Assembly: GCA_963702565.1 (NCBI GenBank)
Contig: CAVPDE010000016.1
Span: 320,034 to 384,033, forward strand
Source: an uncultured delta proteobacterium
Lineage (GTDB): Bacteria > Desulfobacterota > DSM-4660 > Desulfatiglandales > HGW-15
DNA: 64,000 bases
Direction: 5' to 3'
A model generated the notes under the pieces. The model ran no database searches, was not told the origin of the DNA, and saw only the letters and a list, made by a program, of their open reading frames with translations. The position numbers were made by a program, and so were the translations under genes. Numbering within the stretch: the first letter of the stretch is position 1; each line of letters opens with the position of its first letter. This document shows positions 47,598-63,586 of this stretch, piece by piece.

Positions 47598-47634
47598 TCC
47601 GCTTTGTTTGGTTGACCAATGGCAGGAGGCCAGT

Positions 47635-48654
47635 ATGGATTTAAGCCTATTTGCAGAGGGCCCTCTACTCTGGATCGTGTTTTTGCTGTTTCTTGCCGGT
47701 GTGACTGCCAGGCTCGTCTTCTTCGGAATCAAGATTCTCACCAACCCTAAAGGAGACCAGACACGATGGGGATTTAGCGTGCCCATCTTCGGCCGCTTTC
47801 TTCTGCCCTTTCACAAGGCGATTGCCAAGAAGCCCCTTTACGCGGTCATCCGTTACCTCTTTCACCTCTGCCTTTTCATCGTACCCATCTGGCTCGGCGG
47901 CCATATCAGCCTGTGGGAGGAATCCAGGCTCGGCTGGGCCTGGTCTTCTATCCCTGACAAGCTCGCTGACTGGATGACCCTCCTGGTGATCATCCTTGCT
48001 GCGTTTTTTCTGGCTCGGAGGCTCGTTTGGCCCGAGGCGCGAACTGGAACATCTTGGACGGATTTCCTCGTCATTGTCATTGCAGGACTTCCTTTTCTCA
48101 CCGGCTGGTTTCTGACTCACGGCACCTTGGATAAAGTCGCTTTTTTAGGGGACAACATGCGGCTGATCCACGTTCTGAGCGGGGAAGCCATGATCCTCAT
48201 GGCGGTCTTCCTCTTTTGCAGAACCAGGATGAATCCCAGCCGGTGCACGGGGTGCGCTGCCTGCGAGATCAGCTGCCCCACGGGCACACTCGAATCCCGG
48301 GACAAAGGCGCTTTCAGGATTTTCAATTACTCCCACTATCAGTGCATCTGCTGCGGGGCCTGCGTGAATACCTGCCCGGAAAATGCAGCCGAGCTCAGGC
48401 ACGACATCAGTCCGCGAAAATTCTTCCAGATCCTCTCCAAGCAGGAGATCCGCGCGGTTGAGATGAAGCCCTGCCAAAAATGCGGCGCCCTGTTTATGCC
48501 CGAGCCGCTTTTCACCAAAATCAGCAAGACCTTTGCAGACGACTATCTCCACCTCTGCCCGAACTGCAGAAAAGCAAATGTGGTGGAGCTTTATCGCCGC
48601 ATGGCGCCGTGGATCAAGAAACAGGGCGCGCCAGCCCAAAGCAAGAAATCATGA
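47635..48654 (+). CDS. NarI/DsrM-like polytopic membrane protein fused to a 2x[4Fe-4S] ferredoxin domain and a C-terminal CxxC...CxxC ribbon
   Basis: ATG 47635 follows GGCAGGAGG. There are about 5 TM helices with conserved His (FHLCLF, GGHISLW, LIHVLSG), then CTGCAACEISCP, CICCGACVNTCP, CQKCG...CPNC. Confidence 0.7.
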   Translation: MDLSLFAEGPLLWIVFLLFLAGVTARLVFFGIKILTNPKGDQTRWGFSVPIFGRFLLPFHKAIAKKPLYAVIRYLFHLCLFIVPIWLGGHISLWEESRLGWAWSSIPDKLADWMTLLVIILAAFFLARRLVWPEARTGTSWTDFLVIVIAGLPFLTGWFLTHGTLDKVAFLGDNMRLIHVLSGEAMILMAVFLFCRTRMNPSRCTGCAACEISCPTGTLESRDKGAFRIFNYSHYQCICCGACVNTCPENAAELRHDISPRKFFQILSKQEIRAVEMKPCQKCGALFMPEPLFTKISKTFADDYLHLCPNCRKANVVELYRRMAPWIKKQGAPAQSKKS

Positions 48655-48933: not shown

Positions 48934-49206
48934 ATGGTTGATGAAAAAGATAACCTCTCGACAGCGGAGAGCTTGCGCGCAACCAGAACCTACGGCAAAT
49001 TCCGATGTCACAATCCCACTTGCATGGAAAGACTCGAGCCGAAGAAGGGGGACAAGACCATCAAGTGCCCGACGTGCGGAATGGAATTCCGCGTGGCGTG
49101 GGTCAAAGATGGACTCCCCAGAATCAGGGGACCGGTCTGGGAAGTGAACAGAAAAATTGCCGAAGCGGAATTAGCCAGAAAGATGAAGGCGAAGGAGGGG
49201 AAGTGA
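48934..49206 (+). CDS. small zinc-ribbon protein, translationally coupled to AOR-2
   Basis: 90 aa. CHNPTC...CPTCG, with a Lys-rich C-terminal helix. AAAGGAGAG RBS. The stop lies 1 nt before the AOR-2 ATG. Confidence 0.6.
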   Translation: MVDEKDNLSTAESLRATRTYGKFRCHNPTCMERLEPKKGDKTIKCPTCGMEFRVAWVKDGLPRIRGPVWEVNRKIAEAELARKMKAKEGK

Positions 49207-49207
49207 C

Positions 49208-51149
49208 ATGCCGTTAGACAGTAAAATTGCTTATATCGATCTTACCACAGGAGACATCCAGATAAAACCCATTCCTCTCGATGTGAGAAAGAAGTTCCTC
49301 GGAGGCAGAGGGCTGGATGCATACCTTCTTTACAACAACACCAAGAAGGGCTGTGATCCCATCGGGCCGGACAACGCGCTCATGGTGAGCGGTGGGCTTC
49401 TGTGTGCCACCTGCGCCTCTGCGACAGCCAGGACCCACGTGATGGCAAAGTCCCCCCTGACCGGACTCTTGGGCAGCTGCAACATGGGCGGATTCTTTGC
49501 CCCTGAAATGACCTGGGCCGGGTTTAATCACCTGGTGATCAAAGGCAAGGCCAAGCATCCCGTGTACCTCTACATCCACAACGGCGAAATCGAAATTCGC
49601 GACGCTCGCGACATCTGGGGCCGGAGCGTCACCGAAGCCCAGTGGGCCATCCGGGACGACCTCGGCGACCAGGAAGTCAAGAGCATGGTCTGCGGTCCTG
49701 CGGGCGAGAACCTGGTCCGATACGCCAATGTGATGACGGGAATCAAGAATGCGGGCGGAAGGACGGGCATGGGTTGTGTCATGGGCTCCAAGAACCTCAA
49801 AGCCGTGGCCGCCAGAGGGACCATGGACGTCAAAATCGCCCATCCGGTCGAGGCCCTTGAATTCAACAAGCGCTTTATCGAGCAGATCACTAGCGCTAAA
49901 GTCAACCAGACCCAGGGAGCCATCGGAACCCCCTTCATCTGGGGCGCCACCAACTCCTGGGGCGGAATCCGGAACAGGAACTTCCAGTACAACCAGTGCG
50001 AGTATGCGGACGACATGGAACCCGAGCATCTCGACGAAATCGCAACGGAAACCATCGGACCTTACCACATGACCGGGTGTTTCGGGTGCCAGGTGCACTG
50101 TCGGGCACAGTACAAGATTCCTTTCGGCCCCTACGCCGGGAAGTACGATGAAGGTCCGGAGTACACCTCCCAGGGCGCATTCGGCGGAGAGACCGACACC
50201 CCGAGAGCCATCACGGTTCTGACAGGAAACCATCTTGTGGACCAGTACGGGGTGGATAACCTGGAGATAGGAAGCCTTATTTCGTGGGCCATGGAACTCT
50301 ATGAACTGGGGATTATCACCAACAAAGAGACCGACGGCCTGGATCTCCGGTGGGGGAACGATGATGCAGTGCTTGAAATGATCCACCGCATCTGCCAGAG
50401 GAAGGGATGGCTTGGAGACACCTTGGCCGACGGCGGCGTTGCCGCCTCCAAGAAGATCGGCAAGAACTCCTTCAGCTACCTCATCCAGGTCAAAGGCATG
50501 AGCAACCTCCATTCCGATGAGCGGGCGACCCCGGGGCTGGCCCTGAACATTGCCCTGTCCTCAAGGGGTTCCGACCACCTGCGGAGCAGGCCGGCCATCG
50601 ACCTTTACCATCTCCCCGAACCGGTCATGCGGAAGATTTACAGCAGCCCGGTTCCCTACAATGGGCCTCTTGAGCTCCGAGCATACGGAGTACATCGGCA
50701 AACCCTGGCAGGTCTTCTGGCACGAGAACTGTTACATGGCCGTGGACTGCCTCGGGATCTGCAAGTACCACACCACCTTCCTGGGAGCTACCCTCCCTAA
50801 CTTCGAAGACTGGGTCAAGGTCGTTTACTACAACACGGGCCTCCAGTTGACCCCCCAGGAGATCTGGACGATCGCCGAGAGGTGTAACAACATGGAGCGG
50901 CTCTTCAACCTGAGGGAGGGGTTGTCCAAGGATGATCCTGAAAAGGGCGATGTGCTCAACCATCGTTATCACGACGAACCCACAAGGCGCGGGGCGCCGG
51001 ATGTCGTCGGTCGAGTCATTGAAAAGGACAAGTTCATCAAGATGCGCTCTGAGATATACGGGCACAAGGGTTGGGATGAAAACGGAATTCCCAAACCTGA
51101 GACCCTGAAGAGACTCGGCATCGATAACGAGCCATCCCACCTGGTATGA
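49208..51149 (+). pseudogene. aor: tungsten-type aldehyde:ferredoxin oxidoreductase family (AOR-2), interrupted by a +1 frameshift near 50663-50667
   Basis: ORF 49208..50800 carries the N-terminal and central AOR regions up to ...LSSRGSDHLRSRP...SSPVPYNG. The conserved C-terminus (LSSEHTEYIGKPWQVFWHENCYMAVDCLGICKY...) continues in the +1 frame (ORF 50550..51149). It could be a real pseudogene, a sequencing error or recoding. Confidence 0.75.
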
Positions 51150-51171: not shown

Positions 51172-51678
51172 ATGGAACAAATGGGTAAAGTTCTTGTGGT
51201 GAATCAGGAAAAATGCACCGGATGCAGACTTTGCGAGCTGGTCTGTGCGGTGAAGCATGACGGCATCTCGAATCCTGCTCGAAGCCGCATCAAGGTGATG
51301 AAATGGGAGGCTGAGGGGCTCTACATCCCCATGTCCTGCCAGCAGTGCCAGGACGCCCCTTGCACGAATGTCTGCCCTGTGAAAGCGATTTCCAGGGACG
51401 AGGATCTGGCCAGGGTCATGGTGGACTATGACAAGTGCATCGGCTGCCGATCCTGCGTTGCCGTGTGTCCTTTCGGCGCCATGAGCTTCAATGTCATCGA
51501 TCGAAAGGTCTTCAAGTGCGACCTGTGTGACGGCGACCCTCAGTGCGTCCGTTTCTGCGACATGAAAGCCGTGGATTACATGAGCGCCGATGAGGTGAGC
51601 ATCATGAAGAAAAGGGATGCTGCCGCAAGGGTATCCCGGGCAAGCAAAGAGGGCGCAGCCCTCATGGCTCAGCTCTAG
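51172..51678 (+). CDS. 4x[4Fe-4S] polyferredoxin (DmsB/AorA-like electron-transfer subunit)
   Basis: Four Cys clusters are present: CTGCRLCELVC, CQQCQDAPCTNVCP, CIGCRSCVAVCP, CDLCDGDPQCVRFC. GAAAGGAG RBS. Confidence 0.85.
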   Translation: MEQMGKVLVVNQEKCTGCRLCELVCAVKHDGISNPARSRIKVMKWEAEGLYIPMSCQQCQDAPCTNVCPVKAISRDEDLARVMVDYDKCIGCRSCVAVCPFGAMSFNVIDRKVFKCDLCDGDPQCVRFCDMKAVDYMSADEVSIMKKRDAAARVSRASKEGAALMAQL

Positions 51679-51908: not shown

Positions 51909-53339
51909 ATGGGAATAAACAAAATTGAACTCCTTTCTGTCGGCATCGATGTCGGCAGCGCGACAAGTCATTTGGTCTTTTCAAACCTCGTGTTGGTACG
52001 GGACGAGATGTCTCCCACGCTCCGGTTCAATATCGAGGAAAGAAAGGTGATCTATGAAGGCAAGATCATTCACACCCCTCTTCTTGAAGACAAGACGATT
52101 GATATCGATAAACTGACCGCCTTTTTCAAACAAGAATATCAGCATGCCGGGATTGACCCCGCCGACATTCACACGGGCGCGGTGATCATCACCGGAGAGT
52201 CGGCCAAGAAACAAAACGCGCCCCAGATCGCAGAGGCTTTGTCCAAGGATGCAGGGAAGCTCGTGGCAGCTACGGCAGGACCCAATTTCGAGAGTCTCCT
52301 CTCTGCCATGGGATCAGGCGCAACCGCACGATCAAGGGATCATCACAAAACTATTATGTCCTGCGATATCGGCGGCGGCACGTCCAACCTCGCCATCTCA
52401 AGAGAAGGTGAGGTTCTCTCCACCAGCTGCATCGCTGTGGGCGGCCGATTGATGGCCATGGATTCCGAGATAAGAATTCGCCAGCTTGCCGAACCAGCGG
52501 TCAAAGTCATGCAGGCTATCGGTTTGAACTACAGACTTGGGGATCCAATTCCAAAACCGGACATTGAAAAAATCGCGACCAAAATGGCCGAAGTGCTCAT
52601 TGAAGTGATGACGGGCCCTGCGACGTCCCCTTTAGCCAAGGAACTCATGATGACCGGTGATCTGGATTTCTCAACGCCCATCGATGAATACATGTTTTCA
52701 GGAGGCGTGGCCGAGATCATCTACGCCGGGAAGGGCCGCTACAACGATATCGGGAGCATACTTGCAAAGAAGATCCGTTCCCTGGCTTCTGAACTCGGCT
52801 CTCCCGTGGTAGAGCCGATCAACAAGATCAGAGCCACGGTCATCGGAGCAGGCGCTTACTCCCTGTCCGTTTCAGGCTCATCGGGTTTTATGGACGACAA
52901 GCTCAAACTTCCCATCAGGAACATCCCTGTGCTCCGGGTGGACGTGGAATACGCCAAACTGAGCTTGGAACACGTGGTTTCCAGGGTGAACATGGCCTTC
53001 CAGAGGCACGACTTAGTCGAGGGGCAGGAGATCGTCGCCCTGTACTTCAAGGACCCTGTTCGAGTCAACTATCCTGCTTTGGAGTTGTTCGCGAAGTCCA
53101 TGGAGGCGGCCCTCCCCAACGCTATTGCCAAGAAGATGCCGATTATCCTGATCTTTCAGAAAGATATTGCCTGCAGTGTGGGGAATGTCATTCGGCGGGA
53201 AACAGGCTTGCACACCAATCTGCTCTCTCTCGATGAATTGTCCTTGAATGACGGGGATTGGATCGATATCAGCGAACCCTTGGTCGGCCGGCAGGTGTTT
53301 CCGGTTACCGTGAAGTCTCTGGTCTTCCCTGCAACTTAG
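51909..53339 (+). CDS. eutA: EutA-family (ASKHA-fold) reactivating-factor-like ATPase, orphan
   Basis: LLSVGIDVGSATSHLVFS, GAVIITGESAKKQNA, AGPNFESL and DIGGGTSNLA closely parallel E. coli EutA as recalled. Confidence 0.8.
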   Translation: MGINKIELLSVGIDVGSATSHLVFSNLVLVRDEMSPTLRFNIEERKVIYEGKIIHTPLLEDKTIDIDKLTAFFKQEYQHAGIDPADIHTGAVIITGESAKKQNAPQIAEALSKDAGKLVAATAGPNFESLLSAMGSGATARSRDHHKTIMSCDIGGGTSNLAISREGEVLSTSCIAVGGRLMAMDSEIRIRQLAEPAVKVMQAIGLNYRLGDPIPKPDIEKIATKMAEVLIEVMTGPATSPLAKELMMTGDLDFSTPIDEYMFSGGVAEIIYAGKGRYNDIGSILAKKIRSLASELGSPVVEPINKIRATVIGAGAYSLSVSGSSGFMDDKLKLPIRNIPVLRVDVEYAKLSLEHVVSRVNMAFQRHDLVEGQEIVALYFKDPVRVNYPALELFAKSMEAALPNAIAKKMPIILIFQKDIACSVGNVIRRETGLHTNLLSLDELSLNDGDWIDISEPLVGRQVFPVTVKSLVFPAT

Positions 53340-53812
53340 CAGGCAACCTCGGCAGCCTTTTCCAGAGCGACAGCCGCCATCTCTCGCACGTGCTCATCGT
53401 CGGAGATCAGGTAATCTGCGACTCCCTCCTTGAAGGAGGCGGTAAAGAGTTCCAGCCCGTCGAACAGCTCTTCTTTCTCCTCCTTTTCGCGAAGACACAC
53501 GATTTTTGGAAACAGGCTTTCCTTCTTGAACCCTTCCACAAGGACCACGTCACAATCGGAGCAATACCGGAGCATGTCCTTTAGGCTCCTCTCTCCCTTG
53601 ACAATGATTTCCGCTTCCACGGCAGAGGCGGCTGCCACCACCGAGGCAAAGGCCCGGTACCGGGAGGAGTCCGCATCCACAAACTGAAGTTCGCAGGAGA
53701 CGTGCTTCACTACCCCCACACGCAACCCTTTGCTCGCCAGCTCCTTGCAGAGTTTTACCCCGAGCGTCGTCTTACCGCTTTTGTGATACCCGATAATGCC
53801 GACCGCCTTCAC
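53336..53812 (-). CDS. mobB: molybdopterin-guanine dinucleotide biosynthesis adapter protein MobB
   Basis: N-terminal GIIGYHKSGKTTL P-loop and VGVVKH. Confidence 0.85.
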   Translation of the reverse strand: MKAVGIIGYHKSGKTTLGVKLCKELASKGLRVGVVKHVSCELQFVDADSSRYRAFASVVAAASAVEAEIIVKGERSLKDMLRYCSDCDVVLVEGFKKESLFPKIVCLREKEEKEELFDGLELFTASFKEGVADYLISDDEHVREMAAVALEKAAEVAC

Positions 53813-53818
53813 CTGATC

Positions 53819-54091
53819 CTAGCCTCCGGAAAGCATCATGGTGAGGTGAATCTCATCCCCGTCCTTGACCGGCTTGGCGAGCTCGTTGGGATAGGCGCTC
53901 TGGAGATTCAAGTAGATTTCAACGATATTGGAGAGTTTTCCATTCTTGCCAAAAATGGAAGACTCCATTGCAGGATATTTTTTTACCAGGTTCTTCAAGC
54001 ATTCTCCCACGGTCTTCCCGTCCAATTCTACGATTTCCTGACCGTTCGTGAATTGCCGGAGTGTCAAATGAAGATGTACTTTGACAGCCAA
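53819..54091 (-). CDS. MoaD/ThiS-family ubiquitin-like sulfur carrier (copy 2)
   Basis: 90 aa with a TTG start after AAGGAGGG. It ends ...DGDEIHLTMMLSGG (Gly-Gly). Confidence 0.75.
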   Translation of the reverse strand: MAVKVHLHLTLRQFTNGQEIVELDGKTVGECLKNLVKKYPAMESSIFGKNGKLSNIVEIYLNLQSAYPNELAKPVKDGDEIHLTMMLSGG

Positions 54092-54170
54092 TTGTTCTCC
54101 CTCCTTATGCCATCCTCAAGAGTATGCGGCCTGACTCCTTGAAAACACCCGGATACAAGGCGCGCTTTTC

Positions 54171-54236
54171 AGTGACGAGTGACGAGTAACACGTGCCGAG
54201 ATAAAGACATGGAGTTGTTGCTCGTTACTTGTCACT
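54171..54236. repeat. word-repeat hairpin (GTGACGAGT words) between moeB-like and moaD-like genes
   Basis: agtgacgagtgacgagtaac (54171-54190) pairs with gttgctcgttacttgtcact (54217-54236). Confidence 0.7.
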
Positions 54237-54304
54237 TGCCCCTTCCATGTGACGATGAGCGCAACGCCGCTGAAAGGCGTTTTGCAGCATCCTGCCGCAC
54301 TAAA

Positions 54305-55036
54305 TCACAGGTGAGCACAATGCTCACACTCTGGATTTCGCTGCACCTTGAACTCGGTGAACTTCAGGTTCAGCCCGTCGTAGGCCAGCAACCGGTTTGC
54401 AAGAGGGTCTCCGATTCCCACCAGGACCTTGATCACTTCCGTTGCCTGGATGCAGGCGATCACTGCAGGCGTCACTCCGATCACCGGAAATTTCGATTCC
54501 GGCACCGGGCCGCGGTAAAGGCATCTCAAGCAGGCTGTTTTGCCGGGGATCACGGTCATGGCCCGTCCTTCAAAACCGTTGACGGCCCCATGGACAAAGG
54601 GGACCCCCTGGCCGATCGCCGTTTTGTTCAGCACATAGCGGGTGGGTAAATTGTCCATAGCATCGACGATCAGATCAAATCCCGCAGTGAGTTCCGAAGC
54701 ATTCTCCTCCGAAATCGTCACACTCAACGTCTCGACGGTCACATTCGGATTGAGTTTATTAAGCTTCTCCTGGGCCGACTCCACCTTTTGTCTTCCCACG
54801 TCGGCTGTCCAGTGGGCCACCTGTCGATTCAGGTTCGTGAGGTCCACCTTGTCGTGGTCCACGATCCGGAGGTGGCCTACCCCCGCCGCGGTCAGATAGA
54901 TCGAAACAGGGGAACCAAGACCCCCTGCCCCGGCAATGAACACTTTGGCCCTTTTCAGCTTCTCCTGGCCTTTTTCCCCGATTTGAGGGATCATGATCTG
55001 GCGGCCGTATCGTTCAAGCTCTTCACCCGTTAACAT
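54305..55036 (-). CDS. moeB: MoeB/ThiF/HesA-family adenylyltransferase (copy 2)
   Basis: ERYGRQI, FIAGAGGLGS, DHDKVDLTNLNRQ. A C-terminal CLRC...CEHC zinc site is present. Confidence 0.85.
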   Translation of the reverse strand: MLTGEELERYGRQIMIPQIGEKGQEKLKRAKVFIAGAGGLGSPVSIYLTAAGVGHLRIVDHDKVDLTNLNRQVAHWTADVGRQKVESAQEKLNKLNPNVTVETLSVTISEENASELTAGFDLIVDAMDNLPTRYVLNKTAIGQGVPFVHGAVNGFEGRAMTVIPGKTACLRCLYRGPVPESKFPVIGVTPAVIACIQATEVIKVLVGIGDPLANRLLAYDGLNLKFTEFKVQRNPECEHCAHL

Positions 55037-55237
55037 GACCTCTCCTTGCTTTTGCGGGGGCGGTGATTACTTTCCGGCATTGACGCTGTTTTTCTTTACA
55101 CGACAGAACAAGCTGTTGCGACTTGAGCCGCGACGCTCCACCAAATTGTTGTGTTTTCAAATTAAGACAAGTTGGCTCCGTTTTCAAGCCCTATCAAGGC
55201 GCTTGAAAAAAGGCTGCTCCAGATGAAAAGAGAGGGC

Positions 55238-56599
55238 ATGGTCATTGTAACCGGCTACGTGGAAGGGGAGAGCTACGGTCTGCTCGGCCCCCAACTGGCC
55301 GCAAGCATCATTCAAGAAAACTCGATCTACGACTGCATCGTGGTAACTCTCCCCAGGCAGTTTGACAAGAACATCTTCAAAAAGACCCTGCAGGATTACT
55401 TCGGCAACGAACGGCCGGTCATCGGTTTCTCTTATCTCGCCGGTCGAACCGATCTTTTCTCCCTTGCCCGCGAACTCAAAGAAGAGGGCTCTTTCACTAT
55501 TCTCGCAGGCCCCCAGGCAGACGTCGACTTCGGGGGGGAGCAGGGCCGGCAAGATCATCCCCACTATTTCCAAGGCCTTTCGGATTGCTTTTCCACGGCC
55601 ATTCACGGACCGGCTGAGCAGATTCTTCCTTTCCTGAACCGTCCGATAGATCACAAAAGGTTCTCGGACCCGGGCCTCCTCAGAACCTCTTTCACCTGGA
55701 ACGAAGAATTCCTGACAAAGGTCCGATGGGACAATCTGTACAGGCTAGGCGACGCCGGGCTCACTCCTTTGCCCGTTACAACAGGTCAGGTGCTTCAGCA
55801 GATCGGCTGCCCTCATGCGAGTCGAACACGGACGATTGAGATCGACTACCCTGTCGCCTTCAGAAAGACCGAAAAGGACAAAGTGGGCCTTTCCCTGAAA
55901 GGATGCAGTTTTTGTGATGTGGCAATCGACAAGGGGTTTCATGGAGCCTTGAGCCTCGACGCGGTCATGGAACAGATTCAGAGACTCCCGGACGGCGAGG
56001 AGGACCGCAAGATCCCTTTTGAACTGATCAACGAAAATGCCGCTCCAGGCCTTCCGGCCCTTCTGGCCGGAGTTCGAGCGAAGGGGATCCGCCTTTCCCG
56101 GATCAGCCTGACCCTGCGGGCGGATTGGTTTGTCTTGGGGGAAAAGGATCTGAGGGAAACGCTTGCTCTGGCCGGCGCCTTGGATGTCCAGGTTCTCTTG
56201 GGTTCCATGGGTTTCGAATCTTTCGACGACCGCATTCTCTCCAATCTTCACAAAGGGCTCGATGCGGAGACCAACCTGCGAGCCGTGAAACTCATGAGGG
56301 GTCTCAAGAGCGAGTTCCCCCGCCAATGGGCTTATGCCAGGCAGGAAGGCGCGATTCACGGTTTCATTCACCCCACACCGTGGGACACGCCTGAAACGGA
56401 ATCGAACAACGCAAGAATCATTTCTCTCTACGGATTGCTCAACGACATTCTCCCGGAGCACAGCGTCCCTCTCATCATCCATCATGCCTCGGCACTGGGG
56501 GACTGGGCCAGGGAGATCGAGAAGAGAGAAGACGTCCAGTTCAAGCGGGAGGGCTCGACCATAGGCTGGTGGCAGGTGGGAGAGAGGTTTATTATATAA
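55238..56599 (+). CDS. B12-binding-domain/radical-SAM-like protein with degenerate cluster motif
   Basis: N-terminal Rossmann-like region (VIGFSYLAG...FTILAGPQAD), then LSLKGCSFCDV where the first Cys of CxxxCxxC is Ser. The nearest upstream Cys is 31 residues away (C at 55808-55810). ATG 55238 follows GAGAGGG; the ORF is open to 55172. Confidence 0.5.
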   Translation: MVIVTGYVEGESYGLLGPQLAASIIQENSIYDCIVVTLPRQFDKNIFKKTLQDYFGNERPVIGFSYLAGRTDLFSLARELKEEGSFTILAGPQADVDFGGEQGRQDHPHYFQGLSDCFSTAIHGPAEQILPFLNRPIDHKRFSDPGLLRTSFTWNEEFLTKVRWDNLYRLGDAGLTPLPVTTGQVLQQIGCPHASRTRTIEIDYPVAFRKTEKDKVGLSLKGCSFCDVAIDKGFHGALSLDAVMEQIQRLPDGEEDRKIPFELINENAAPGLPALLAGVRAKGIRLSRISLTLRADWFVLGEKDLRETLALAGALDVQVLLGSMGFESFDDRILSNLHKGLDAETNLRAVKLMRGLKSEFPRQWAYARQEGAIHGFIHPTPWDTPETESNNARIISLYGLLNDILPEHSVPLIIHHASALGDWAREIEKREDVQFKREGSTIGWWQVGERFII

Positions 56600-56722: not shown

Positions 56723-56917
56723 ATGAGAGTGAAGATTGATTACGATCTTTGTATGGGAGACAGGAACTGCAACAAGGTTTGCCCGGAGGTCTTTCAGTAC
56801 GATGAGGACAAACTCCTGTCCCGGGTTCTCGTGGATGTGGTCCCGAAGCATCTCGAGGCTCTGGTCGAGAAAGCCGCCAGAGAGTGCGCGCCCGGAGCGA
56901 TTGTTATTCTCGGATGA
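56723..56917 (+). CDS. fdx: small monocluster ferredoxin with CxxDxxC...CP motif (Pyrococcus-Fd type)
   Basis: 64 aa with ATG after AGGAGG. CMGDRNCNKVCP ... ECAP. The Asp sits at the second ligand position. Confidence 0.75.
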   Translation: MRVKIDYDLCMGDRNCNKVCPEVFQYDEDKLLSRVLVDVVPKHLEALVEKAARECAPGAIVILG

Positions 56918-56974: not shown

Positions 56975-57050
56975 GGTACACGGGTCACGGCGCACGGTAC
57001 ACGGGAAAACCCCGAGGCAAATTGGTGTCGGCCGTGCGCCGCGCACCGTC
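56975..57050. repeat. word-repeat hairpin (GGCGCACGG/GTACACGGG words) between convergent genes
   Basis: ggtacacgggtcacggcgcacggtacacggg pairs with gtcggccgtgcgccgcgcaccgtc. It is a likely bidirectional terminator. Confidence 0.6.
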
Positions 57051-59521: not shown

Positions 59522-60682
59522 TTAGGTCCACCTACCGGGTATCACATGATTGCAGAATTTGCAATGTCCCTTGTTCAAGTTGACCTGTTTGAGCGAATAC
59601 CCGTTTCGTTCCACAAGGATTCTCCTGCAGTTCGGGCAGTAGGTATTGCAGCCCTGGTGGCCGGGCACATTCCCCAGGTAGACAAAATGGATCCCTTCCG
59701 ATAAGGCCACGTCTCTCAGTTTCTCCAGGGTTGCCACGGGCGTCGGAGGCAGCCGCGTCAGCCGGTATTGGGGAAAGAACCGGAGCAGGTGAAGAGGATA
59801 GTCCGGACCGAGTTCCCTCAATATCCATCCACACATTCTTTTGATCATCTCGGGGTCTTCCACATACGTCGGCACCACGAGAGTGGTTATTTCGAGCCAG
59901 ACCCCCTGCTCGTGGAGGATCTGGAGCGTGTTGAGCACAGGCTGGAGCGTTCCCCCGTTCAGAGACCGATAGAGGCGGTCATCGAAAGACTTGAGATTGA
60001 TGTTTGCACCGTCCAGGACGTTGCAGAGTGCAAGGAGAGGCTCGCGATTGATGTAGCCGTTGGACACGAGAACGTTCTTGAGTCCTGCCTCTTTTCCGAG
60101 CCTGGCCGTATCCACCATATACTCGTAGTACGTGATGGCCTCCGAATACGTGAAGGCAATCGACGGGCTTTCCCTCCTGATGGACTCCCGTACCACCTCT
60201 TGCGGGAACAACTCGATGGACTGAACCTCCTCGGGTTTTTTCTGGGAGATTTCCCAGTTCTGGCAATTCAGACACCGGAAATTGCAGCCCGTGGCGGCGA
60301 CGGAAAAGATGGATGTGCCCGGATGAAAGTGGTTGAGAGGCTTTTTCTCAATGGGGTCCACGTGAACCGAGCAGGGGTTTCCATAAGTCAGAGAATAGAG
60401 CTTGCCGTCAATATTGACCTTGGATCGGCAGACGCTGCGATCTCCCGGTTCCAAGAGGCAGAGGTTGGGGCACACCTGGCACTGAACGCTCTTGCCGTCC
60501 GAGGTGTAGTAAAAACCTTCTACAGACCACTTCCAGGGCCTTGCCGGCGCATCTTTTCTGAAGATCTCGCCCCGGATACTCTCCCCCTTGGTCTGACCGA
60601 AGCAGAGCCCGGTGCCGGCACAAAGAACTCCTGAGAGGCCGAGCCCCAGAGTCTTCACAAATTCTTTACGGCTCATCCTCAT
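59522..60682 (-). CDS. AmmeMemoRadiSam-system radical SAM enzyme with N-terminal Tat-like signal
   Basis: CQVCPNLCLLEPGDRSVCRSK, AATGCNFRCLNCQNWEISQ and a C-terminal CPNC...CKFC ribbon. The N-terminus is MRMSRKEFVKTLGLGLSGVLCAGTGLCFG. Confidence 0.8.
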   Translation of the reverse strand: MRMSRKEFVKTLGLGLSGVLCAGTGLCFGQTKGESIRGEIFRKDAPARPWKWSVEGFYYTSDGKSVQCQVCPNLCLLEPGDRSVCRSKVNIDGKLYSLTYGNPCSVHVDPIEKKPLNHFHPGTSIFSVAATGCNFRCLNCQNWEISQKKPEEVQSIELFPQEVVRESIRRESPSIAFTYSEAITYYEYMVDTARLGKEAGLKNVLVSNGYINREPLLALCNVLDGANINLKSFDDRLYRSLNGGTLQPVLNTLQILHEQGVWLEITTLVVPTYVEDPEMIKRMCGWILRELGPDYPLHLLRFFPQYRLTRLPPTPVATLEKLRDVALSEGIHFVYLGNVPGHQGCNTYCPNCRRILVERNGYSLKQVNLNKGHCKFCNHVIPGRWT

Positions 60683-62787
60683 GAAGCGGTCCGCCCACGC
60701 GGAAAGAGTACGATGATGTTACTTGAAATCTTGACGAGGATCAAAAAAATTATGGCCATCTGGATCCCCAGCATAGGGATAAGGATCGCTCCCGTGGCCA
60801 AGGTCCCCACTGCAGCGCCCGTAAGATCCGCTGCCAGGCACCCGGCTGCCGGGCTCTCCTTTTCACCGATGAGGCCGGTGGCAAGGGGAAACTGATACCC
60901 GCAGAAAAAGGAGAAGACAACGCCATAGCCCAAAAAATAAAACTGCGGGATATCCCCCTCGGAAAAGCTGATTCCCACATAGAAGACGACCAAAAGGCTG
61001 AAAAGAATGATCTCAGAGACGATAAAAGGAATCCATCCTCTCCCTTTGAAAAGGCTGCCGAACAGGGCCCCGGGAAGCAAGCCCATGAGAAAAGCGGTCA
61101 CAATGGCTCCGAGCTTCAGGTAGATGTATCCGTACATCACCTGGAACGTAAAGATCACCAGCATCTCCACCCCCATGTTCGCAAGACCCGTGGTAAAGAG
61201 CACGACCTCCTCCCTGCGCAGAAAGATCAGGTACAGCATCGTGAGGCACAAGGCCACGAGGCCGAAGACTTTGGGTGAGGAGCCGTGCTTGGCGAACCAC
61301 TCCTGAAACAAGGCGGTCATGATCCTGGGCTCAAAGTCGGTATTGGCCGGAGCCTTCGGGTCCAGCTTTTTCTTGAGCTCTTCGATTCGTTCTTGCGTCA
61401 CATTGCCGTGAAAGAAGCCCTCCACATAGGACGTGGTCACGGATTTCAGGGCGAGTCGCGCCGGCACGTCCGTCCACAGTTCACCGTCTCTGCAGAGAAA
61501 GTAAGCCTTTTCCCCCGGAAGGATGACCACGTTTCGAAAATGCTGTCTGGCCGTATTGTAGAGGACGGAAAGCTTGCTTCTCTGGATATCGCTCAGGTAG
61601 TTCGGCGAGGTGTCCACGCTGAAAGAAAGAATTCCCTCGTTTTGAAGGACCTTCTTGACCAGAGAGAAAAACTCGGAGGTGAAAAACCGGTTGAGTTGAA
61701 AGGTGTCAGGCTCAGGAAGATCCACGATAACCGCATCATACTTCTTGGAAGCCCCTTTGATGTAATGCCGTCCGTCATCATGGATGATGGCAAGAGACGG
61801 AGACTGAACAATCAAACCGAGCTCCTGCGCAACCCTTGTAAGATTCGGATCCAGTTCCACGTAGTCCACGGAAGACGGGGCATACTTGGCCACTTCTGCA
61901 AGCGTTTCCCCCAAACCCCCGGAGACGAGCAGAACGCTTCTCACCTCCTCCAGCTGGCTCAGGGCATAGTGGATTTTCTCCTCGCTGTTCACGATATCCG
62001 CGTCGGAATAAAAGGGGGTTCCCGACTCCCAGAAAGTGTGCTGGGGTCCTTCCTTGGTGATGACGATTCTGCCATAGGGTGACTCTACATACCGAACGAT
62101 CTCTCCGTACTGCGGGGACAGGGTGACCTTCTCAAAATGGCTGTTGAGAGAAAACAAGCAGAAAAGGCCGGTGAACACAAGGGTCAAGAAAAAAAACACG
62201 TATCGCCTAAAAGCGAGAAAAAGCAGAAGCACAGCCACAATCAGGAGCCCTGAAGTGATCGCGACGGTCACAAAGGGGCTAAAGGAGTAAACGAGGACAA
62301 AGCTGAACAGGATTCCACCCGTGATGTCCCCGATGCTGTCTGTGACATAGAGGCCGCCGGACGTGAAGTCCTCCCACCGTTCGTTCAGCACCCTCAGGGA
62401 ATAAGGAAGGATGAATCCGAGCAGCAGACCATAGGGGGATATGGTCGCGAGGATGTAAAGGGCCGTTTGATTGAATCCCGGTGAAGCCCCATGCACAAAA
62501 ACACTTTCTCTCAAGGTGCGGATCAGAATGAGCTGAGGGAGAGGCCACAAAGCGAGAAGGCCGGAGGCAAGGGCAAAAACCGTTACGGAAGGCCGGCGAA
62601 AGGCCCTGGCCATGAAGCTTCCAAGGCCGGTGAGCAGCAACCAAGAAAAAAGGACTAGGGAAATGGTGATCTCATTGCCGTGGAACTGAGACAGGAACTC
62701 GCGCACGGTCACCAGTTGGACCGCAATGGAAGAAACACCGGTCCCTATGATCGCCCAAAGGATGAATAGTTTCAGATGCCTTTTCAC
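60679..62787 (-). CDS. polytopic membrane protein with central spermidine-synthase-like domain
   Basis: 702 aa. About 7-8 N-terminal and 5-6 C-terminal TM helices flank VLLVSGGLGETL ... YVELDP ... DAVIVDLPEPDT (SpeE-like SAM/dcSAM fold). Confidence 0.75.
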   Translation of the reverse strand: MKRHLKLFILWAIIGTGVSSIAVQLVTVREFLSQFHGNEITISLVLFSWLLLTGLGSFMARAFRRPSVTVFALASGLLALWPLPQLILIRTLRESVFVHGASPGFNQTALYILATISPYGLLLGFILPYSLRVLNERWEDFTSGGLYVTDSIGDITGGILFSFVLVYSFSPFVTVAITSGLLIVAVLLLFLAFRRYVFFFLTLVFTGLFCLFSLNSHFEKVTLSPQYGEIVRYVESPYGRIVITKEGPQHTFWESGTPFYSDADIVNSEEKIHYALSQLEEVRSVLLVSGGLGETLAEVAKYAPSSVDYVELDPNLTRVAQELGLIVQSPSLAIIHDDGRHYIKGASKKYDAVIVDLPEPDTFQLNRFFTSEFFSLVKKVLQNEGILSFSVDTSPNYLSDIQRSKLSVLYNTARQHFRNVVILPGEKAYFLCRDGELWTDVPARLALKSVTTSYVEGFFHGNVTQERIEELKKKLDPKAPANTDFEPRIMTALFQEWFAKHGSSPKVFGLVALCLTMLYLIFLRREEVVLFTTGLANMGVEMLVIFTFQVMYGYIYLKLGAIVTAFLMGLLPGALFGSLFKGRGWIPFIVSEIILFSLLVVFYVGISFSEGDIPQFYFLGYGVVFSFFCGYQFPLATGLIGEKESPAAGCLAADLTGAAVGTLATGAILIPMLGIQMAIIFLILVKISSNIIVLFPRGRTAS

Positions 62788-62860
62788 GCCGGTGTCCTGC
62801 TCCGGAAATCCGCTCCTGAAATGATCTCGCTAGGGCGCCTCCTCGGCTTTGCCTTGCGCA

Positions 62861-63586
62861 TCATTCTTCTTCGAACGCCTGAACCTGGTACGTGTGGACT
62901 TCGAGCTTGTCATAGGCCCATGCATCTCCTGCCAGCCCTGCCTTGAGGCAAAGATGGCTCAGGAAGTCTTTCTTGTTGGGGAGCTGTTCCCAGACCTGAG
63001 GAAGAAAGGTGGCCTGATGATATCCTTGGCGGATGATCAGGCCGTCCGTCCCGGGTCTCAGCTTGGCAAGGAGATCATTGGCATCGGTATACGGCAGCGG
63101 CTTTGGCGCCGTGAGAATGCTCACCTCAACTTTGATCTTTTCAAACTCATTTTGACTGAGAGGCCTGAATCGCGGATCTCGAAAGGCCGCGTTCATGGCA
63201 TTGACTCTCACCCCTTCGATCAGAGACTCCTGAGGAATGATGTGGCCGATGCACCCTCTCAGAGCGCCGTTGAGGGTGAGGGTCACAAAGGTCCCGCGCC
63301 TTTCCTGAAATTTTGGGGAACTCAACGAGTCCTGATCGCTCGTGTCTTTCGGATGGAACAGGGCTTTTTGAATGGTCTTTCTCGCCGTCTCCACAAGGTG
63401 TTTCCCTTCTTCCCCCGTCAGCTTGTCGGTTTCGCTCATCGCCCCCTCCTTGACCTTTTCTTTGATCCTGTGCGCTCCCCTCTCTTCAGCGCCCGCTCCC
63501 ACGCTCATCGCAAGGACAAGAATCCAGGACGCCAGGATCATCGAGACAGATCGAGCAACGCCGTGAGAGAATTGAGCAGGTCGCAT
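62861..63586 (-). CDS. AMMECR1-domain protein (AmmeMemoRadiSam system protein A) with N-terminal signal/anchor
   Basis: RGTFVTLTLNGALRGCIGHI and AFRDPRF motifs. N-terminal hydrophobic segment MILASWILVLAMSVGAGA. Confidence 0.85.
   Translation of the reverse strand: MRPAQFSHGVARSVSMILASWILVLAMSVGAGAEERGAHRIKEKVKEGAMSETDKLTGEEGKHLVETARKTIQKALFHPKDTSDQDSLSSPKFQERRGTFVTLTLNGALRGCIGHIIPQESLIEGVRVNAMNAAFRDPRFRPLSQNEFEKIKVEVSILTAPKPLPYTDANDLLAKLRPGTDGLIIRQGYHQATFLPQVWEQLPNKKDFLSHLCLKAGLAGDAWAYDKLEVHTYQVQAFEEE

What the first reader, a model, noticed from the sequence alone, without database searches (positions are those of the whole stretch)
55238..56599. Radical-SAM/B12-binding-like protein whose CxxxCxxC is SxxxCxxC, with a distant upstream Cys (C-x31-C-x2-C)
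The N-terminal half looks like the Rossmann-type cobalamin-binding domain of class B radical SAM enzymes. The core then reads QQIGC(213)PHASRTRTIEIDYPVAFRKTEKDKVGLS(241)LKGC(245)SFC(248)DV (residues numbered from 55172), followed by a typical post-motif region (SLDAVMEQIQRL...FELINEN). The canonical first Cys is Ser, and the only candidate replacement is 31 residues upstream. Insertions within the motif are known (for example CX14CX2C in one QueE) but are rare. The gene is divergent from moeB-moaD-mobB and is followed by a ferredoxin. This recalls the radical-SAM cofactor-modifying gene (cmo) next to Pyrococcus aor, so a role in tungstopterin maturation is plausible but unproven.
Basis: partly seen in the sequence, partly recalled or inferred. 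Interest (0 to 1): 0.65.

Follow-up and report, generated by a model that had tools for sequence, protein, structure and literature searches.

The report
Split-motif radical SAM protein beside tungsten AOR
This gene encodes a conserved, unnamed relative of radical SAM enzymes in which the first iron-sulfur cysteine has moved 31 residues upstream, and it almost always sits beside one clade of bacterial tungsten aldehyde oxidoreductase genes, so it is probably a dedicated helper of that enzyme.

Summary
The ORF (best start ATG 55223, stop 56599, 458 aa) reads S224-x3-C228-x2-C231 where CxxxCxxC is expected. The next upstream Cys is C196, giving C-x31-C-x2-C. This is a family trait and not decay. 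C196, C228, F230 and C231 are invariant down to 25% identity across more than 1,000 homologs, all unnamed, while position 224 varies freely.

AlphaFold gives a confident model (pLDDT 90). Its closest solved structures are the methylthiotransferases MiaB and MtaB, not class B cobalamin enzymes. The N-terminal domain is a generic flavodoxin-like fold. It has no PF02310 hit, no auxiliary-cluster cysteines and no TRAM domain.

Gene linkage runs both ways. 38 of 61 family loci carry a zinc-ribbon/AOR/polyferredoxin module. 14 of 16 well-flanked modules found independently carry this gene. The link holds across two gene orders and down to about 40% identity.

Most likely this is a divergent radical SAM enzyme with a split cluster motif that serves as an accessory or maturation factor for this tungsten AOR clade. 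The substrate, SAM cleavage, and the 3D proximity of C196 to the CxxC were not tested. It is a new variant of a known kind. Interest is moderate to high.

The parts
55223..56599 (+). Gene for the 458-aa split-motif radical SAM-like protein (alternative starts TTG 55172 and ATG 55238)
   Evidence: ORF. 458-aa homologs at 98-76% identity with 100% coverage. The exact sequence is present in public collections as 'hypothetical/uncharacterized protein'.
55223..55735 (+). N-terminal flavodoxin/Rossmann-like domain (residues 1-171). It carries an S70-x-L72 and A95-G96-P97 fingerprint. It has no His ligand motif and no Cys triad.
   Evidence: AF2 domain model, pLDDT 87. Foldseek gives only generic flavodoxin-like hits, including the MetH B12 fragment and MMCP at E about 5e-3. 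No PF02310 hit. Conserved residues.
55808..55810 (+). Proposed displaced first ligand of the [4Fe-4S] cluster.
   Evidence: Invariant in all alignments. Retained in distant relatives at variable spacing. The neighbouring residues H198 and Q193 co-vary with the ends of barrel strands beta2 and beta3, which is weak support.
55811..55903 (+). 31-residue insertion between C196 and C228. It is predicted as a short helix plus a beta-hairpin (strands 202-208 and 220-226) and contains the conserved D208-Y209-P210. S224 (55892-55894) occupies the canonical first-Cys position.
   Evidence: AF2 secondary structure, with pLDDT 81-88 over this stretch. Hairpin pairing recovered by co-variation: T204-G222 ranks #6 and T204-S224 ranks #17. 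S224 is variable.
55904..55915 (+). C228-S-F230-C231, equivalent to the second and third Cys of CxxxCx(aromatic)C
   Evidence: Aligned to OxsB C317/C320, to RimO GCTFC and to PF04055 model positions 10 onward. C228, F230 and C231 are invariant.
56210..56221 (+). G330-F-E332-S333, the GxES motif shared with class B and methylthiotransferase-type radical SAM enzymes
   Evidence: E332 and S333 are invariant. Aligned to iGvES of OxsB. Its role in SAM ribose binding rests on established knowledge of the superfamily and was not tested here.
56357..56398 (+). H379-G-F-I-H-P-T-P-W-D-T-P-E-T, a strongly conserved block at the position of the GxIxGxPGET-type motif
   Evidence: H379, I382, P384, T385, W387 and D388 are invariant. 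The equivalence to the known motif is inference from sequence.
48934..49206 (+). Conserved 90-aa zinc-ribbon protein (CHNPxC...CPxC, PRIRGPVW). Its stop codon lies 2 nt before the AOR start.
   Evidence: No Pfam or NCBIfam hit. Present in 38 of 61 family loci. Used as the seed for the reverse association test.
49208..51149 (+). Tungsten-type aldehyde:ferredoxin oxidoreductase (AFOR_N + AFOR_C). In this window it is split by a 1-nt insertion near 50669.
   Evidence: Pfam. Alignment to the intact 646-aa ortholog in L059 shows a single gap.
51172..51678 (+). 168-aa polyferredoxin carrying multiple 4Fe-4S binding motifs, by position an AorA-like electron-transfer subunit
   Evidence: Pfam and NCBIfam. 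Co-occurs with AOR in 39 of 61 loci.
51909..53339 (+). EutA-family ATPase paralog. It is found in type-1 clusters only.
   Evidence: PF06277 at E 2e-135. It scores below the NCBIfam EutA equivalog cutoffs. Present in 26 of 61 loci and absent from type-2 clusters.
53336..55036 (-). mobB (53336-53812), moaD-like (53819-54091) and moeB (54305-55036), divergent from the target gene
   Evidence: Pfam and NCBIfam. MoaD is in 31 of 61 loci and MoeB in 16 of 61.
56726..56917 (+). 63-aa single-cluster ferredoxin downstream. A possible local reductant, but not conserved with the family.
   Evidence: Pfam Fer4_13/Fer4_15. Present in only 5 of 80 loci. A terminator-like hairpin follows at 57034-57046.

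Best explanation
The gene encodes a member of an unnamed family in the radical SAM superfamily. Its layout resembles methylthiotransferases and class B enzymes: an N-terminal flavodoxin-like domain, a partial TIM barrel and a short C-terminal helix plus hairpin. About 28 residues, forming a helix and a beta-hairpin, have been inserted between the first and second cysteine of the cluster loop.

Proposed mechanism: C196, C228 and C231 bind a [4Fe-4S] cluster. The free iron binds SAM, consistent with the retained aromatic residue F230, the G-F-E-S motif and the HGFIHPTPWDT block. A ferredoxin reduces the cluster. The resulting 5'-deoxyadenosyl radical acts on a substrate that belongs to the adjacent tungsten aldehyde oxidoreductase system. 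That substrate could be the AOR polypeptide, its 90-aa zinc-ribbon partner or the tungstopterin.

Shown here: the motif and its conservation, the predicted fold, and the two-way gene linkage to the ZnRib-AOR-polyferredoxin module. Inferred: cluster ligation by C196, SAM cleavage, and the maturation or accessory role. Unknown: the substrate and the chemistry.
For: Motif and conservation: C196, C228, F230 and C231 are invariant to 25% identity, and the canonical first-Cys position varies.

Homology and fold: C228 and C231 align with the second and third Cys of OxsB and RimO, and GFES aligns with GVES. PF04055 is sub-threshold in the window protein but above threshold in the homolog P0131, at 39 bits. 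The AF2 model has pLDDT 90 and pTM 0.88. Its only significant PDB matches are MiaB/MtaB, at E 1e-9 to 6e-9 and TM 0.50-0.55 over about 450 columns.

Position of the C196 loop: co-variation pairs H198 with T297 (#2), D336 (#25) and A273 (#28), and Q193 with N270 (#22), out of 15,576 pairs. This places the loop at the barrel top beside the beta2 and beta3 ends.

Linkage: 38 of 61 family loci carry ZnRib-AOR-Fer4. 14 of 16 well-flanked ZnRib-AOR modules from an independent metagenome scan carry the gene. The linkage holds in two gene orders and down to about 40% identity. AOR-linked MoaD and MoeB paralogs are frequent neighbours, and that pairing is already known as a tungsten-cofactor cluster (PMC1779556).

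Precedent for an AOR-linked radical SAM 'maturase': NCBIfam TIGR04317.
Against: The window protein scores only 14.3 bits on PF04055, against a cutoff of 29.5. No structure coordinates were available, so the distance from C196 to C228/C231 is unmeasured. The co-variation analysis has only about 125 effective sequences and could reflect clade structure.

No biochemical data exist for any member. About a third of family loci with adequate flanks show no AOR nearby. The roughly 30%-identity sister subfamily is not AOR-linked, so the scaffold itself is not AOR-specific.

Gene linkage cannot separate a maturase from a pathway partner or a subunit. Aromatoleum AOR is matured without such a gene; its aorD and aorE are MoaD-like (PMC6365974).
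Confidence: 0.45

Rival explanations
1. It is a cobalamin-dependent (class B) radical SAM methyltransferase. The N-terminal domain binds cobalamin, and the neighbouring EutA-family ATPase acts as its cobalamin reactivase or activase. The enzyme methylates AOR, the zinc-ribbon protein or the pterin.
For: The N-terminal domain has a flavodoxin/Rossmann fold, with MetH and corrinoid-protein domains among its best (weak) matches. An SxL...(A/G)G fingerprint is conserved. The family profile weakly matches OxsB and the GGPH-type N-domain of 4q37. An EutA paralog lies next to the gene in type-1 clusters.
Against: No PF02310 hit, even at E<=10. No class B structure appears among the top 50 Foldseek matches for the whole chain, whereas MiaB/MtaB score 1e-9. 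The cobalamin-domain matches (E about 5e-3, TM 0.43-0.47) are no better than those to type II dehydroquinase. EutA is absent from type-2 clusters, which keep the gene-AOR link.
Confidence: 0.15
2. It is a catabolic radical enzyme that acts on a small-molecule substrate upstream or downstream of AOR in an aldehyde/acid pathway. On this reading it is not a maturation factor.
For: The clusters carry an IclR regulator (31 of 61 loci). In type-2 loci they sit among beta-oxidation genes and a Zn-alcohol dehydrogenase. This looks like a catabolic operon.
Against: Alcohol to aldehyde to acid conversion needs no radical step. The gene tracks the ZnRib-AOR module and the MoaD/MoeB/MobB cofactor genes rather than any particular catabolic gene set, and the surrounding catabolic genes differ between loci.
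Confidence: 0.15
3. It is a non-radical derivative (a pseudo-radical-SAM protein). The three Cys bind a cluster used only for electron transfer, sensing or structure, or the protein is a chaperone, scaffold or subunit of the AOR complex.
For: The HMM score is sub-threshold and the cluster loop is remodelled. Pseudo-SAM families are a recognised category in NCBIfam, for example TIGR04347. The gene sits directly after AOR and the polyferredoxin, on the same strand, in many loci.
Against: The SAM-associated elements (F230 before the last Cys, GFES, the HGFIHPTPW block) are invariant or nearly so across deep divergence. That conservation is hard to explain without a ligand-binding active site.
Confidence: 0.15
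4. The SxxxCxxC is a decayed or mis-sequenced copy of a normal CxxxCxxC enzyme.
For: TCC (Ser) is one base from TGC (Cys). The adjacent AOR gene in this window carries a frameshift.
Against: Position 224 is non-Cys in all but one of about 350 homologs and takes more than 10 different residues. The protein is otherwise highly conserved.
Confidence: 0.01

Closest known systems
Methylthiotransferases MiaB / RimO / MtaB (radical SAM MTTase family)
   Same: They are the best structural match for the whole chain (E about 1e-9, TM 0.50-0.55). For a family member they are also the best PDB sequence match: RimO at E 0.03, with GCTFC aligned to GCSFC. The domain order is the same: an N-terminal flavodoxin-like domain followed by a radical SAM barrel.
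   Different: The UPF0004 Cys triad for an auxiliary cluster is missing: only C38 is conserved, and only within the close family. There is no TRAM domain. The first cluster Cys is displaced by 28 extra residues. The genomic context is AOR, not translation or tRNA genes.
Class B cobalamin-dependent radical SAM enzymes (e.g. OxsB, PF02310 + PF04055)
   Same: The N-terminal alpha/beta domain precedes the barrel. There is weak profile similarity to OxsB around CxFC and GxES. The N-domain carries an SxL/(A)G fingerprint.
   Different: No PF02310 hit. No class B structure is among the top fold matches. Cobalamin binding is untested. The cluster motif is non-canonical.
   Same: It is a precedent for an insertion between the first and second Cys of the radical SAM motif with radical SAM activity retained.
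   Different: The insertion is much shorter (11 extra residues against 28). The fold subclass and function are unrelated. It was not compared here with any tool.
TIGR04317 'tungsten cofactor oxidoreductase radical SAM maturase' and Pyrococcus cmo
   Same: These are radical SAM genes defined by their adjacency to AOR-family genes and presumed to act in maturation. Their function is likewise not established.
   Different: They are not homologous at the family level. The target has no TIGR04317 hit. TIGR04317 proteins are MoaA/SPASM-like with a canonical CxxxCxxC. No such gene was found in the 80 family loci; the only canonical radical SAM neighbours were two MoaA, one at the far end of a 17-kb locus (L058) and one directly upstream of the target in a Chloroflexota MAG (L074, PF04055, subfamily not identified).
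AOR-linked MoaD/MoeB gene clusters (Iyer, Burroughs & Aravind 2006, PMC1779556)
   Same: The window's moaD-moeB pair next to AOR and a 4Fe-4S ferredoxin is the cluster type described there as tungsten-cofactor specific.
   Different: That description lists no radical SAM-like gene, no zinc-ribbon protein and no EutA paralog.

Membership tests
Radical SAM superfamily (PF04055) | CxxxCxxC cluster-binding motif after beta1 | tested here: not met
   The sequence reads S224-x3-C228-x2-C231. The conserved alternative is C196-x31-C228-x2-C231.
Radical SAM superfamily (PF04055) | Pfam model score above the gathering threshold | tested here: not met
   14.3 bits against 29.5 for the window protein. Homologs range from no hit to 39.2 bits, with P0131 above threshold. 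A few close homologs carry a precomputed PF04055 label.
Radical SAM superfamily (PF04055) | Partial TIM-barrel core resembling solved radical SAM enzymes | tested here: met
   AF2 model with pLDDT 90. Foldseek returns MiaB/MtaB at E 1e-9 with probability 1.00, and Elp3 and HydE further down the list. This rests on a predicted structure, not a solved one.
Radical SAM superfamily (PF04055) | SAM-binding elements: an aromatic residue before the last Cys and the GxES / GxIxGxxE-type motifs | tested here: met
   F230, E332, S333, H379, I382 and P384 are invariant. GFES aligns with OxsB GVES. This shows sequence-level presence only.
Radical SAM superfamily (PF04055) | [4Fe-4S]-dependent reductive cleavage of SAM | not testable with these tools
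   Requires anaerobic biochemistry.
Class B (cobalamin-dependent) radical SAM | N-terminal cobalamin-binding domain (PF02310) | tested here: not met
   No PF02310 hit at E<=10. NCBIfam gives only chance-level hits to B12-rSAM families, at E 0.16-0.26.
Class B (cobalamin-dependent) radical SAM | Fold of the N-domain matches cobalamin-binding Rossmann domains | tested here: inconclusive
   The MetH fragment and MMCP appear at E about 5e-3 and TM 0.43-0.47, but rank alongside type II dehydroquinase and other flavodoxin-like folds.
Methylthiotransferase (MiaB/RimO/MtaB) | UPF0004 domain with three Cys binding an auxiliary [4Fe-4S] cluster | tested here: not met
   The N-domain has only C38 (conserved in the close family only) and the variable C122.
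Methylthiotransferase (MiaB/RimO/MtaB) | C-terminal TRAM domain | tested here: not met
   No Pfam TRAM hit. The C-terminal 35 residues are modelled as one helix plus a two-strand hairpin.
Methylthiotransferase (MiaB/RimO/MtaB) | Overall fold similarity | tested here: met
   TM 0.50-0.55 over 438-478 aligned columns.
TIGR04317 tungsten cofactor oxidoreductase radical SAM maturase / cmo | Match to the family model (MoaA/SPASM-like, canonical motif) | tested here: not met
   No NCBIfam hit other than two chance-level ones.
TIGR04317 tungsten cofactor oxidoreductase radical SAM maturase / cmo | Conserved adjacency to AOR-family genes | tested here: met
   38 of 61 loci in the forward direction and 14 of 16 in the reverse direction.

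The most novel reading that the evidence does not exclude
This family is a new radical SAM subclass with a split cluster motif, C-x(24-47)-C-x2-C, built by a hairpin insertion. Its AOR-linked branch would carry out an undescribed maturation step for one clade of bacterial tungsten aldehyde oxidoreductases. Candidate steps are a post-translational modification of AOR or its zinc-ribbon partner, or a modification or sulfuration of the tungstopterin using the co-encoded MoaD/MoeB sulfur relay.
Probability: 0.3. Interest if true: 0.8.

Novelty: new variant of a known kind. Interest (0 to 1): 0.62.

Why it matters
Radical SAM enzymes are usually recognised by CxxxCxxC, and annotation pipelines therefore miss this family. 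Its members, found here in at least 191 species-level genomes, are almost all labelled 'hypothetical' (a few 'radical SAM protein' or YgiQ-like). A 28-residue insertion would be the longest I know of within the motif, and that comparison rests on my own knowledge, not on a systematic check. If C196 is a cluster ligand, the definition of the cluster loop becomes wider, and the wider pattern gives a search rule for the larger clade, which includes 600-1300 aa fusion proteins.

How tungsten AORs are matured beyond pterin synthesis is poorly understood. A gene that tracks one AOR clade in both directions, together with an unannotated zinc-ribbon protein, gives a concrete candidate that can be tested genetically. 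These AORs are also of interest as biocatalysts for acid reduction, so a missing maturation factor could matter for expressing them in other hosts.

Tried and rejected
- **Sequence searches against named families.** Pfam, NCBIfam and PDB searches with the single protein gave no usable assignment. Profile searches against PDB gave only marginal hits: OxsB at E 0.34 and RimO at E 0.03.
- **Cys-Cys distance.** The structure tools return no coordinates, so the C196 to C228/C231 distance could not be measured. I substituted a home-made mean-field DCA. The first run over the full length timed out. The run restricted to residues 165-345 has only about 125 effective sequences, so I treat it as weak evidence.
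- **EutA as a universal partner.** I considered the EutA paralog as a cobalamin reactivase and constant partner. I rejected that because type-2 clusters lack it.
- **Downstream ferredoxin as a conserved partner.** Rejected: it is in 5 of 80 loci.
- **AOR linkage across the whole superfamily.** Rejected: the roughly 30%-identity subfamily and a UGA-recoded homolog, probably from a candidate-phyla-radiation bacterium, have unrelated contexts.
- **A TIGR04317-type or other alternative radical SAM gene in the loci.** I looked in family loci and in the two ZnRib-AOR loci that lack the target. I found two MoaA, one canonical radical SAM ORF at the far end of a 17-kb locus (L058) and one directly upstream of the target in a Chloroflexota MAG (L074, PF04055, subfamily not identified), and none in the two target-less loci.
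- **Literature.** Searches for CX31CX2C-type motifs, for AOR plus radical SAM, and for AOR plus EutA found nothing on this family.
- **Promoter and terminator scan.** Uninformative.
Full report
**Observation.** The ORF runs from 55172 (TTG) to 56599. In-frame ATGs lie at 55223 and 55238. The protein has five Cys: 38, 122, 196, 228 and 231. The codons for C196, S224, C228 and C231 are tgc 55808, tcc 55892, tgc 55904 and tgt 55913.

**Is it more than chance or decay?** A search of 5.8 billion proteins found more than 1,100 relatives. Nearly all are labelled 'hypothetical' and come from Deltaproteobacteria/Desulfobacterota metagenome bins. In the 120 closest, C196, C228 and C231 are present in all, while position 224 takes 12 different residues. 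An exhaustive HMMER scan of 1.8 billion cluster representatives added full-length relatives at 25-41% identity. In alignments that include them, C196, C228, F230 and C231 stay invariant.

The spacing is exactly x31 in 117 of 120 close hits and 110 of 117 profile hits. Distant relatives, including 600-1300 aa multidomain proteins, also keep a distal Cys, at spacings from x24 to x47 and mostly as G-C-P-[HYF]. Only one full-length member has regained a Cys at position -4, and it still keeps the distal Cys. Both fail.

**What kind of protein is it?** On sequence alone it is barely recognisable:
- PF04055 scores E 0.047 and 14.3 bits, against a gathering score of 29.5. There is no PF02310 hit.
- NCBIfam gives no meaningful hit.
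- PDB gives no hit by phmmer.
- Some homologs pass PF04055, for example P0131 at 39 bits.
- Profile and pairwise searches against PDB give marginal matches to OxsB (class B) and to RimO (a methylthiotransferase). These align C228 and C231 with the second and third motif Cys, and GFES with GVES. S224 therefore sits at the canonical first-Cys position.

AlphaFold2 with a 103-sequence alignment gives a confident model, with pLDDT 90 and pTM 0.88. Foldseek against PDB returns only six significant matches, all MiaB or MtaB, at E 1e-9 to 6e-9 and TM 0.50-0.55 over the whole chain. Elp3 and HydE appear far lower. No class B structure is in the top 50.

The N-terminal 171 residues, modelled alone (pLDDT 87), match only generic flavodoxin-like folds at E about 3e-3 or weaker. 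These include type II dehydroquinase, the MetH cobalamin fragment and a corrinoid protein. The three auxiliary-cluster Cys of methylthiotransferases and the TRAM domain are also absent.

**Anatomy of the split motif.** The model places a strand at 188-191, then G195-C196, a short helix at 197-200, a hairpin at 202-208 and 220-226, and then G227-C228-S-F-C231. A low-confidence loop and helix alpha1 follow. I could not obtain coordinates, so the Cys-Cys distances are unmeasured.

As a substitute I ran a mean-field co-variation analysis on 348 family sequences (about 125 effective) over residues 165-345. It recovers the hairpin: T204-G222 ranks #6 and T204-S224 ranks #17. It also couples H198 with T297 (#2), D336 (#25) and A273 (#28), and Q193 with N270 (#22), out of 15,576 pairs. 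This pattern fits strand 188-194 lying next to beta2, as beta1 does, with the C196 loop at the barrel top where the cluster and SAM sit. On that reading the hairpin is an insertion inside the cluster loop. The alignment is shallow and clade effects are possible, so I count this as weak support only.

**Genomic context.** The window carries the following genes in order:
- an IclR regulator;
- a TmcC/HmcE-like membrane anchor fused to a ferredoxin domain;
- a 90-aa zinc-ribbon protein;
- an AOR;
- a 168-aa polyferredoxin;
- an EutA-family ATPase;
- mobB, moaD and moeB on the opposite strand;
- the target gene;
- a 63-aa ferredoxin.

A scan of one genome per species found the family in 191 stretches. 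All were metagenome-assembled genomes, mostly Desulfobacterota with some Dehalococcoidia/Chloroflexota. Of 61 loci with at least 4 kb on one side:
- 38 contain the ZnRib-AOR-polyferredoxin trio;
- 31 contain the MoaD paralog;
- 31 contain IclR;
- 26 contain EutA;
- 16 contain MoeB.

I then ran the reverse test, seeding a metagenome scan with the zinc-ribbon protein. Of 16 loci with at least 3 kb upstream and 7 kb downstream, 14 contain the target gene.

Two gene orders exist. In type 1, as in the window, the order is ZnRib-AOR-Fer4-EutA, then mobB-moaD-moeB on the other strand, then the target, at 55-98% identity. In type 2 the target lies directly upstream of ZnRib-AOR-Fer4 on the same strand, at about 40% identity, and EutA is absent. 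Linkage that survives rearrangement and 60% sequence divergence is strong evidence of functional coupling with this AOR clade.

The coupling is not a property of the whole superfamily. The roughly 30%-identity sister subfamily and a UGA-recoded homolog, probably from a candidate-phyla-radiation bacterium, have unrelated neighbours. Loci without AOR show varied contexts.

**Mechanism.** The best-supported reading is a radical SAM enzyme whose [4Fe-4S] cluster is held by C196, C228 and C231, and which works for the adjacent tungsten AOR. The invariant F230, GFES and HGFIHPTPWDT blocks argue for a preserved SAM and active-site pocket. The substrate is unknown. Candidates are the AOR polypeptide, the zinc-ribbon protein whose gene abuts the AOR gene, or the tungstopterin.

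The methylthiotransferase-like fold, together with the neighbouring MoaD/MoeB sulfur-carrier pair, makes sulfur chemistry an attractive possibility, but it is untested. The AOR-MoaD-MoeB association is already described as a tungsten-cofactor cluster (PMC1779556). Aromatoleum AOR has two MoaD-like accessory genes and no radical SAM gene (PMC6365974). NCBIfam recognises a different AOR-linked radical SAM 'maturase', TIGR04317, to which this protein is unrelated.

**Rivals.**
- A class B cobalamin methyltransferase with EutA as its reactivase. This is weakened by the lack of any specific B12-domain signal and by the EutA-less type-2 clusters.
- A catabolic pathway enzyme. IclR and beta-oxidation neighbours favour it, but the gene tracks AOR and cofactor genes rather than any one catabolic set.
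- A non-radical Fe-S protein, chaperone or subunit. This is weakened by deep conservation of the SAM-associated motifs.
- Decay or sequencing error. This is refuted by the alignments.

**Novelty.** Searches of the paper library found nothing on long C-x(n)-C-x2-C radical SAM motifs, on AOR plus radical SAM maturases, or on AOR plus EutA that describes this family. It has no dedicated Pfam or NCBIfam model among those searched. I rate it a new variant of a known kind: the superfamily and general architecture are familiar, but the cluster-loop arrangement and the AOR-specific association are undescribed. No biochemistry exists, so function remains inferred.

**Verdict.** The radical SAM relation, the conserved distal Cys and the AOR link all hold, and the AOR link is stronger than proposed. 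The specific class B/cobalamin assignment and the cmo homology do not hold.

Noticed in passing
window 49208-51149 (near 50669): The AOR gene is split into two overlapping frames (49208-50800 and 50550-51149). The cause is a single extra base relative to the intact 646-aa ortholog in L059: GGGCCTCTTGAG against GGGCCT-TTGAG, with 94% DNA identity and one gap. It is either an assembly error or a recent pseudogene.
   Followed up: partly
window 48934-49206: A 90-aa protein with a zinc-ribbon pattern (RCHNPxCM...KCPxCG) and an invariant PRIRGPVW motif. It has no Pfam or NCBIfam hit. Its stop lies 2 nt before the AOR start. It was found in 38 of 61 family loci and in at least 578 metagenome stretches. 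It may be an unrecognised small subunit, assembly factor or substrate for this AOR clade.
   Followed up: partly
window 51909-53339: An EutA-family ATPase (PF06277, E 2e-135) that scores below all NCBIfam EutA equivalog cutoffs. It is embedded in AOR clusters (type 1 only), and no ethanolamine ammonia-lyase genes were seen among the neighbours I annotated. Its role is unknown.
   Followed up: partly
L084 941-2398 (protein P0161): This distant family member has 32 in-frame TGA codons and only 7 GGN codons, at 27% GC. The database translation shows W where the family has conserved Gly (for example KWCSFC). The gene therefore comes from a UGA=Gly recoded organism, of the Gracilibacteria/Absconditabacteria type, and the deposited protein sequence is mistranslated.
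   Followed up: yes
proteins P0205, P0211, P0218, P0220, P0223, P0239, P0265 (no window coordinates): These are 600-1300 aa proteins. Their N-terminal half has the same split motif (GCP[FYW]-x~26-GCxFC). In P0205, P0218, P0223, P0239 and P0265 it is fused to a second, canonical radical SAM domain (HxsC-, MoaA- or twitch/SPASM-like); P0211 and P0220 showed no such second domain in the NCBIfam and Pfam scans. None of the N-terminal halves has a named family.
   Followed up: partly
window 47608-48654: A fusion of a TmcC/HmcE-like membrane anchor with a 4Fe-4S ferredoxin domain lies upstream of the AOR module and is conserved in 24 of 61 loci. It suggests this AOR clade is wired to the membrane.
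   Followed up: no
window 59522-63586 (minus strand): An AmmeMemoRadiSam radical SAM enzyme (TIGR04337, 59522-60682) and an AMMECR1 protein (62861-63586). This is a separate radical SAM system in the same window. Its radical SAM gene recurs near the target in 7 of 80 loci.
   Followed up: no
L087 5961-11919: A ~30%-identity relative (P0153) sits with several small ORFs, a canonical radical SAM protein and a B12-binding radical SAM protein. This looks like a peptide-modification (RiPP-like) cluster and hints that the scaffold can act on peptides.
   Followed up: no
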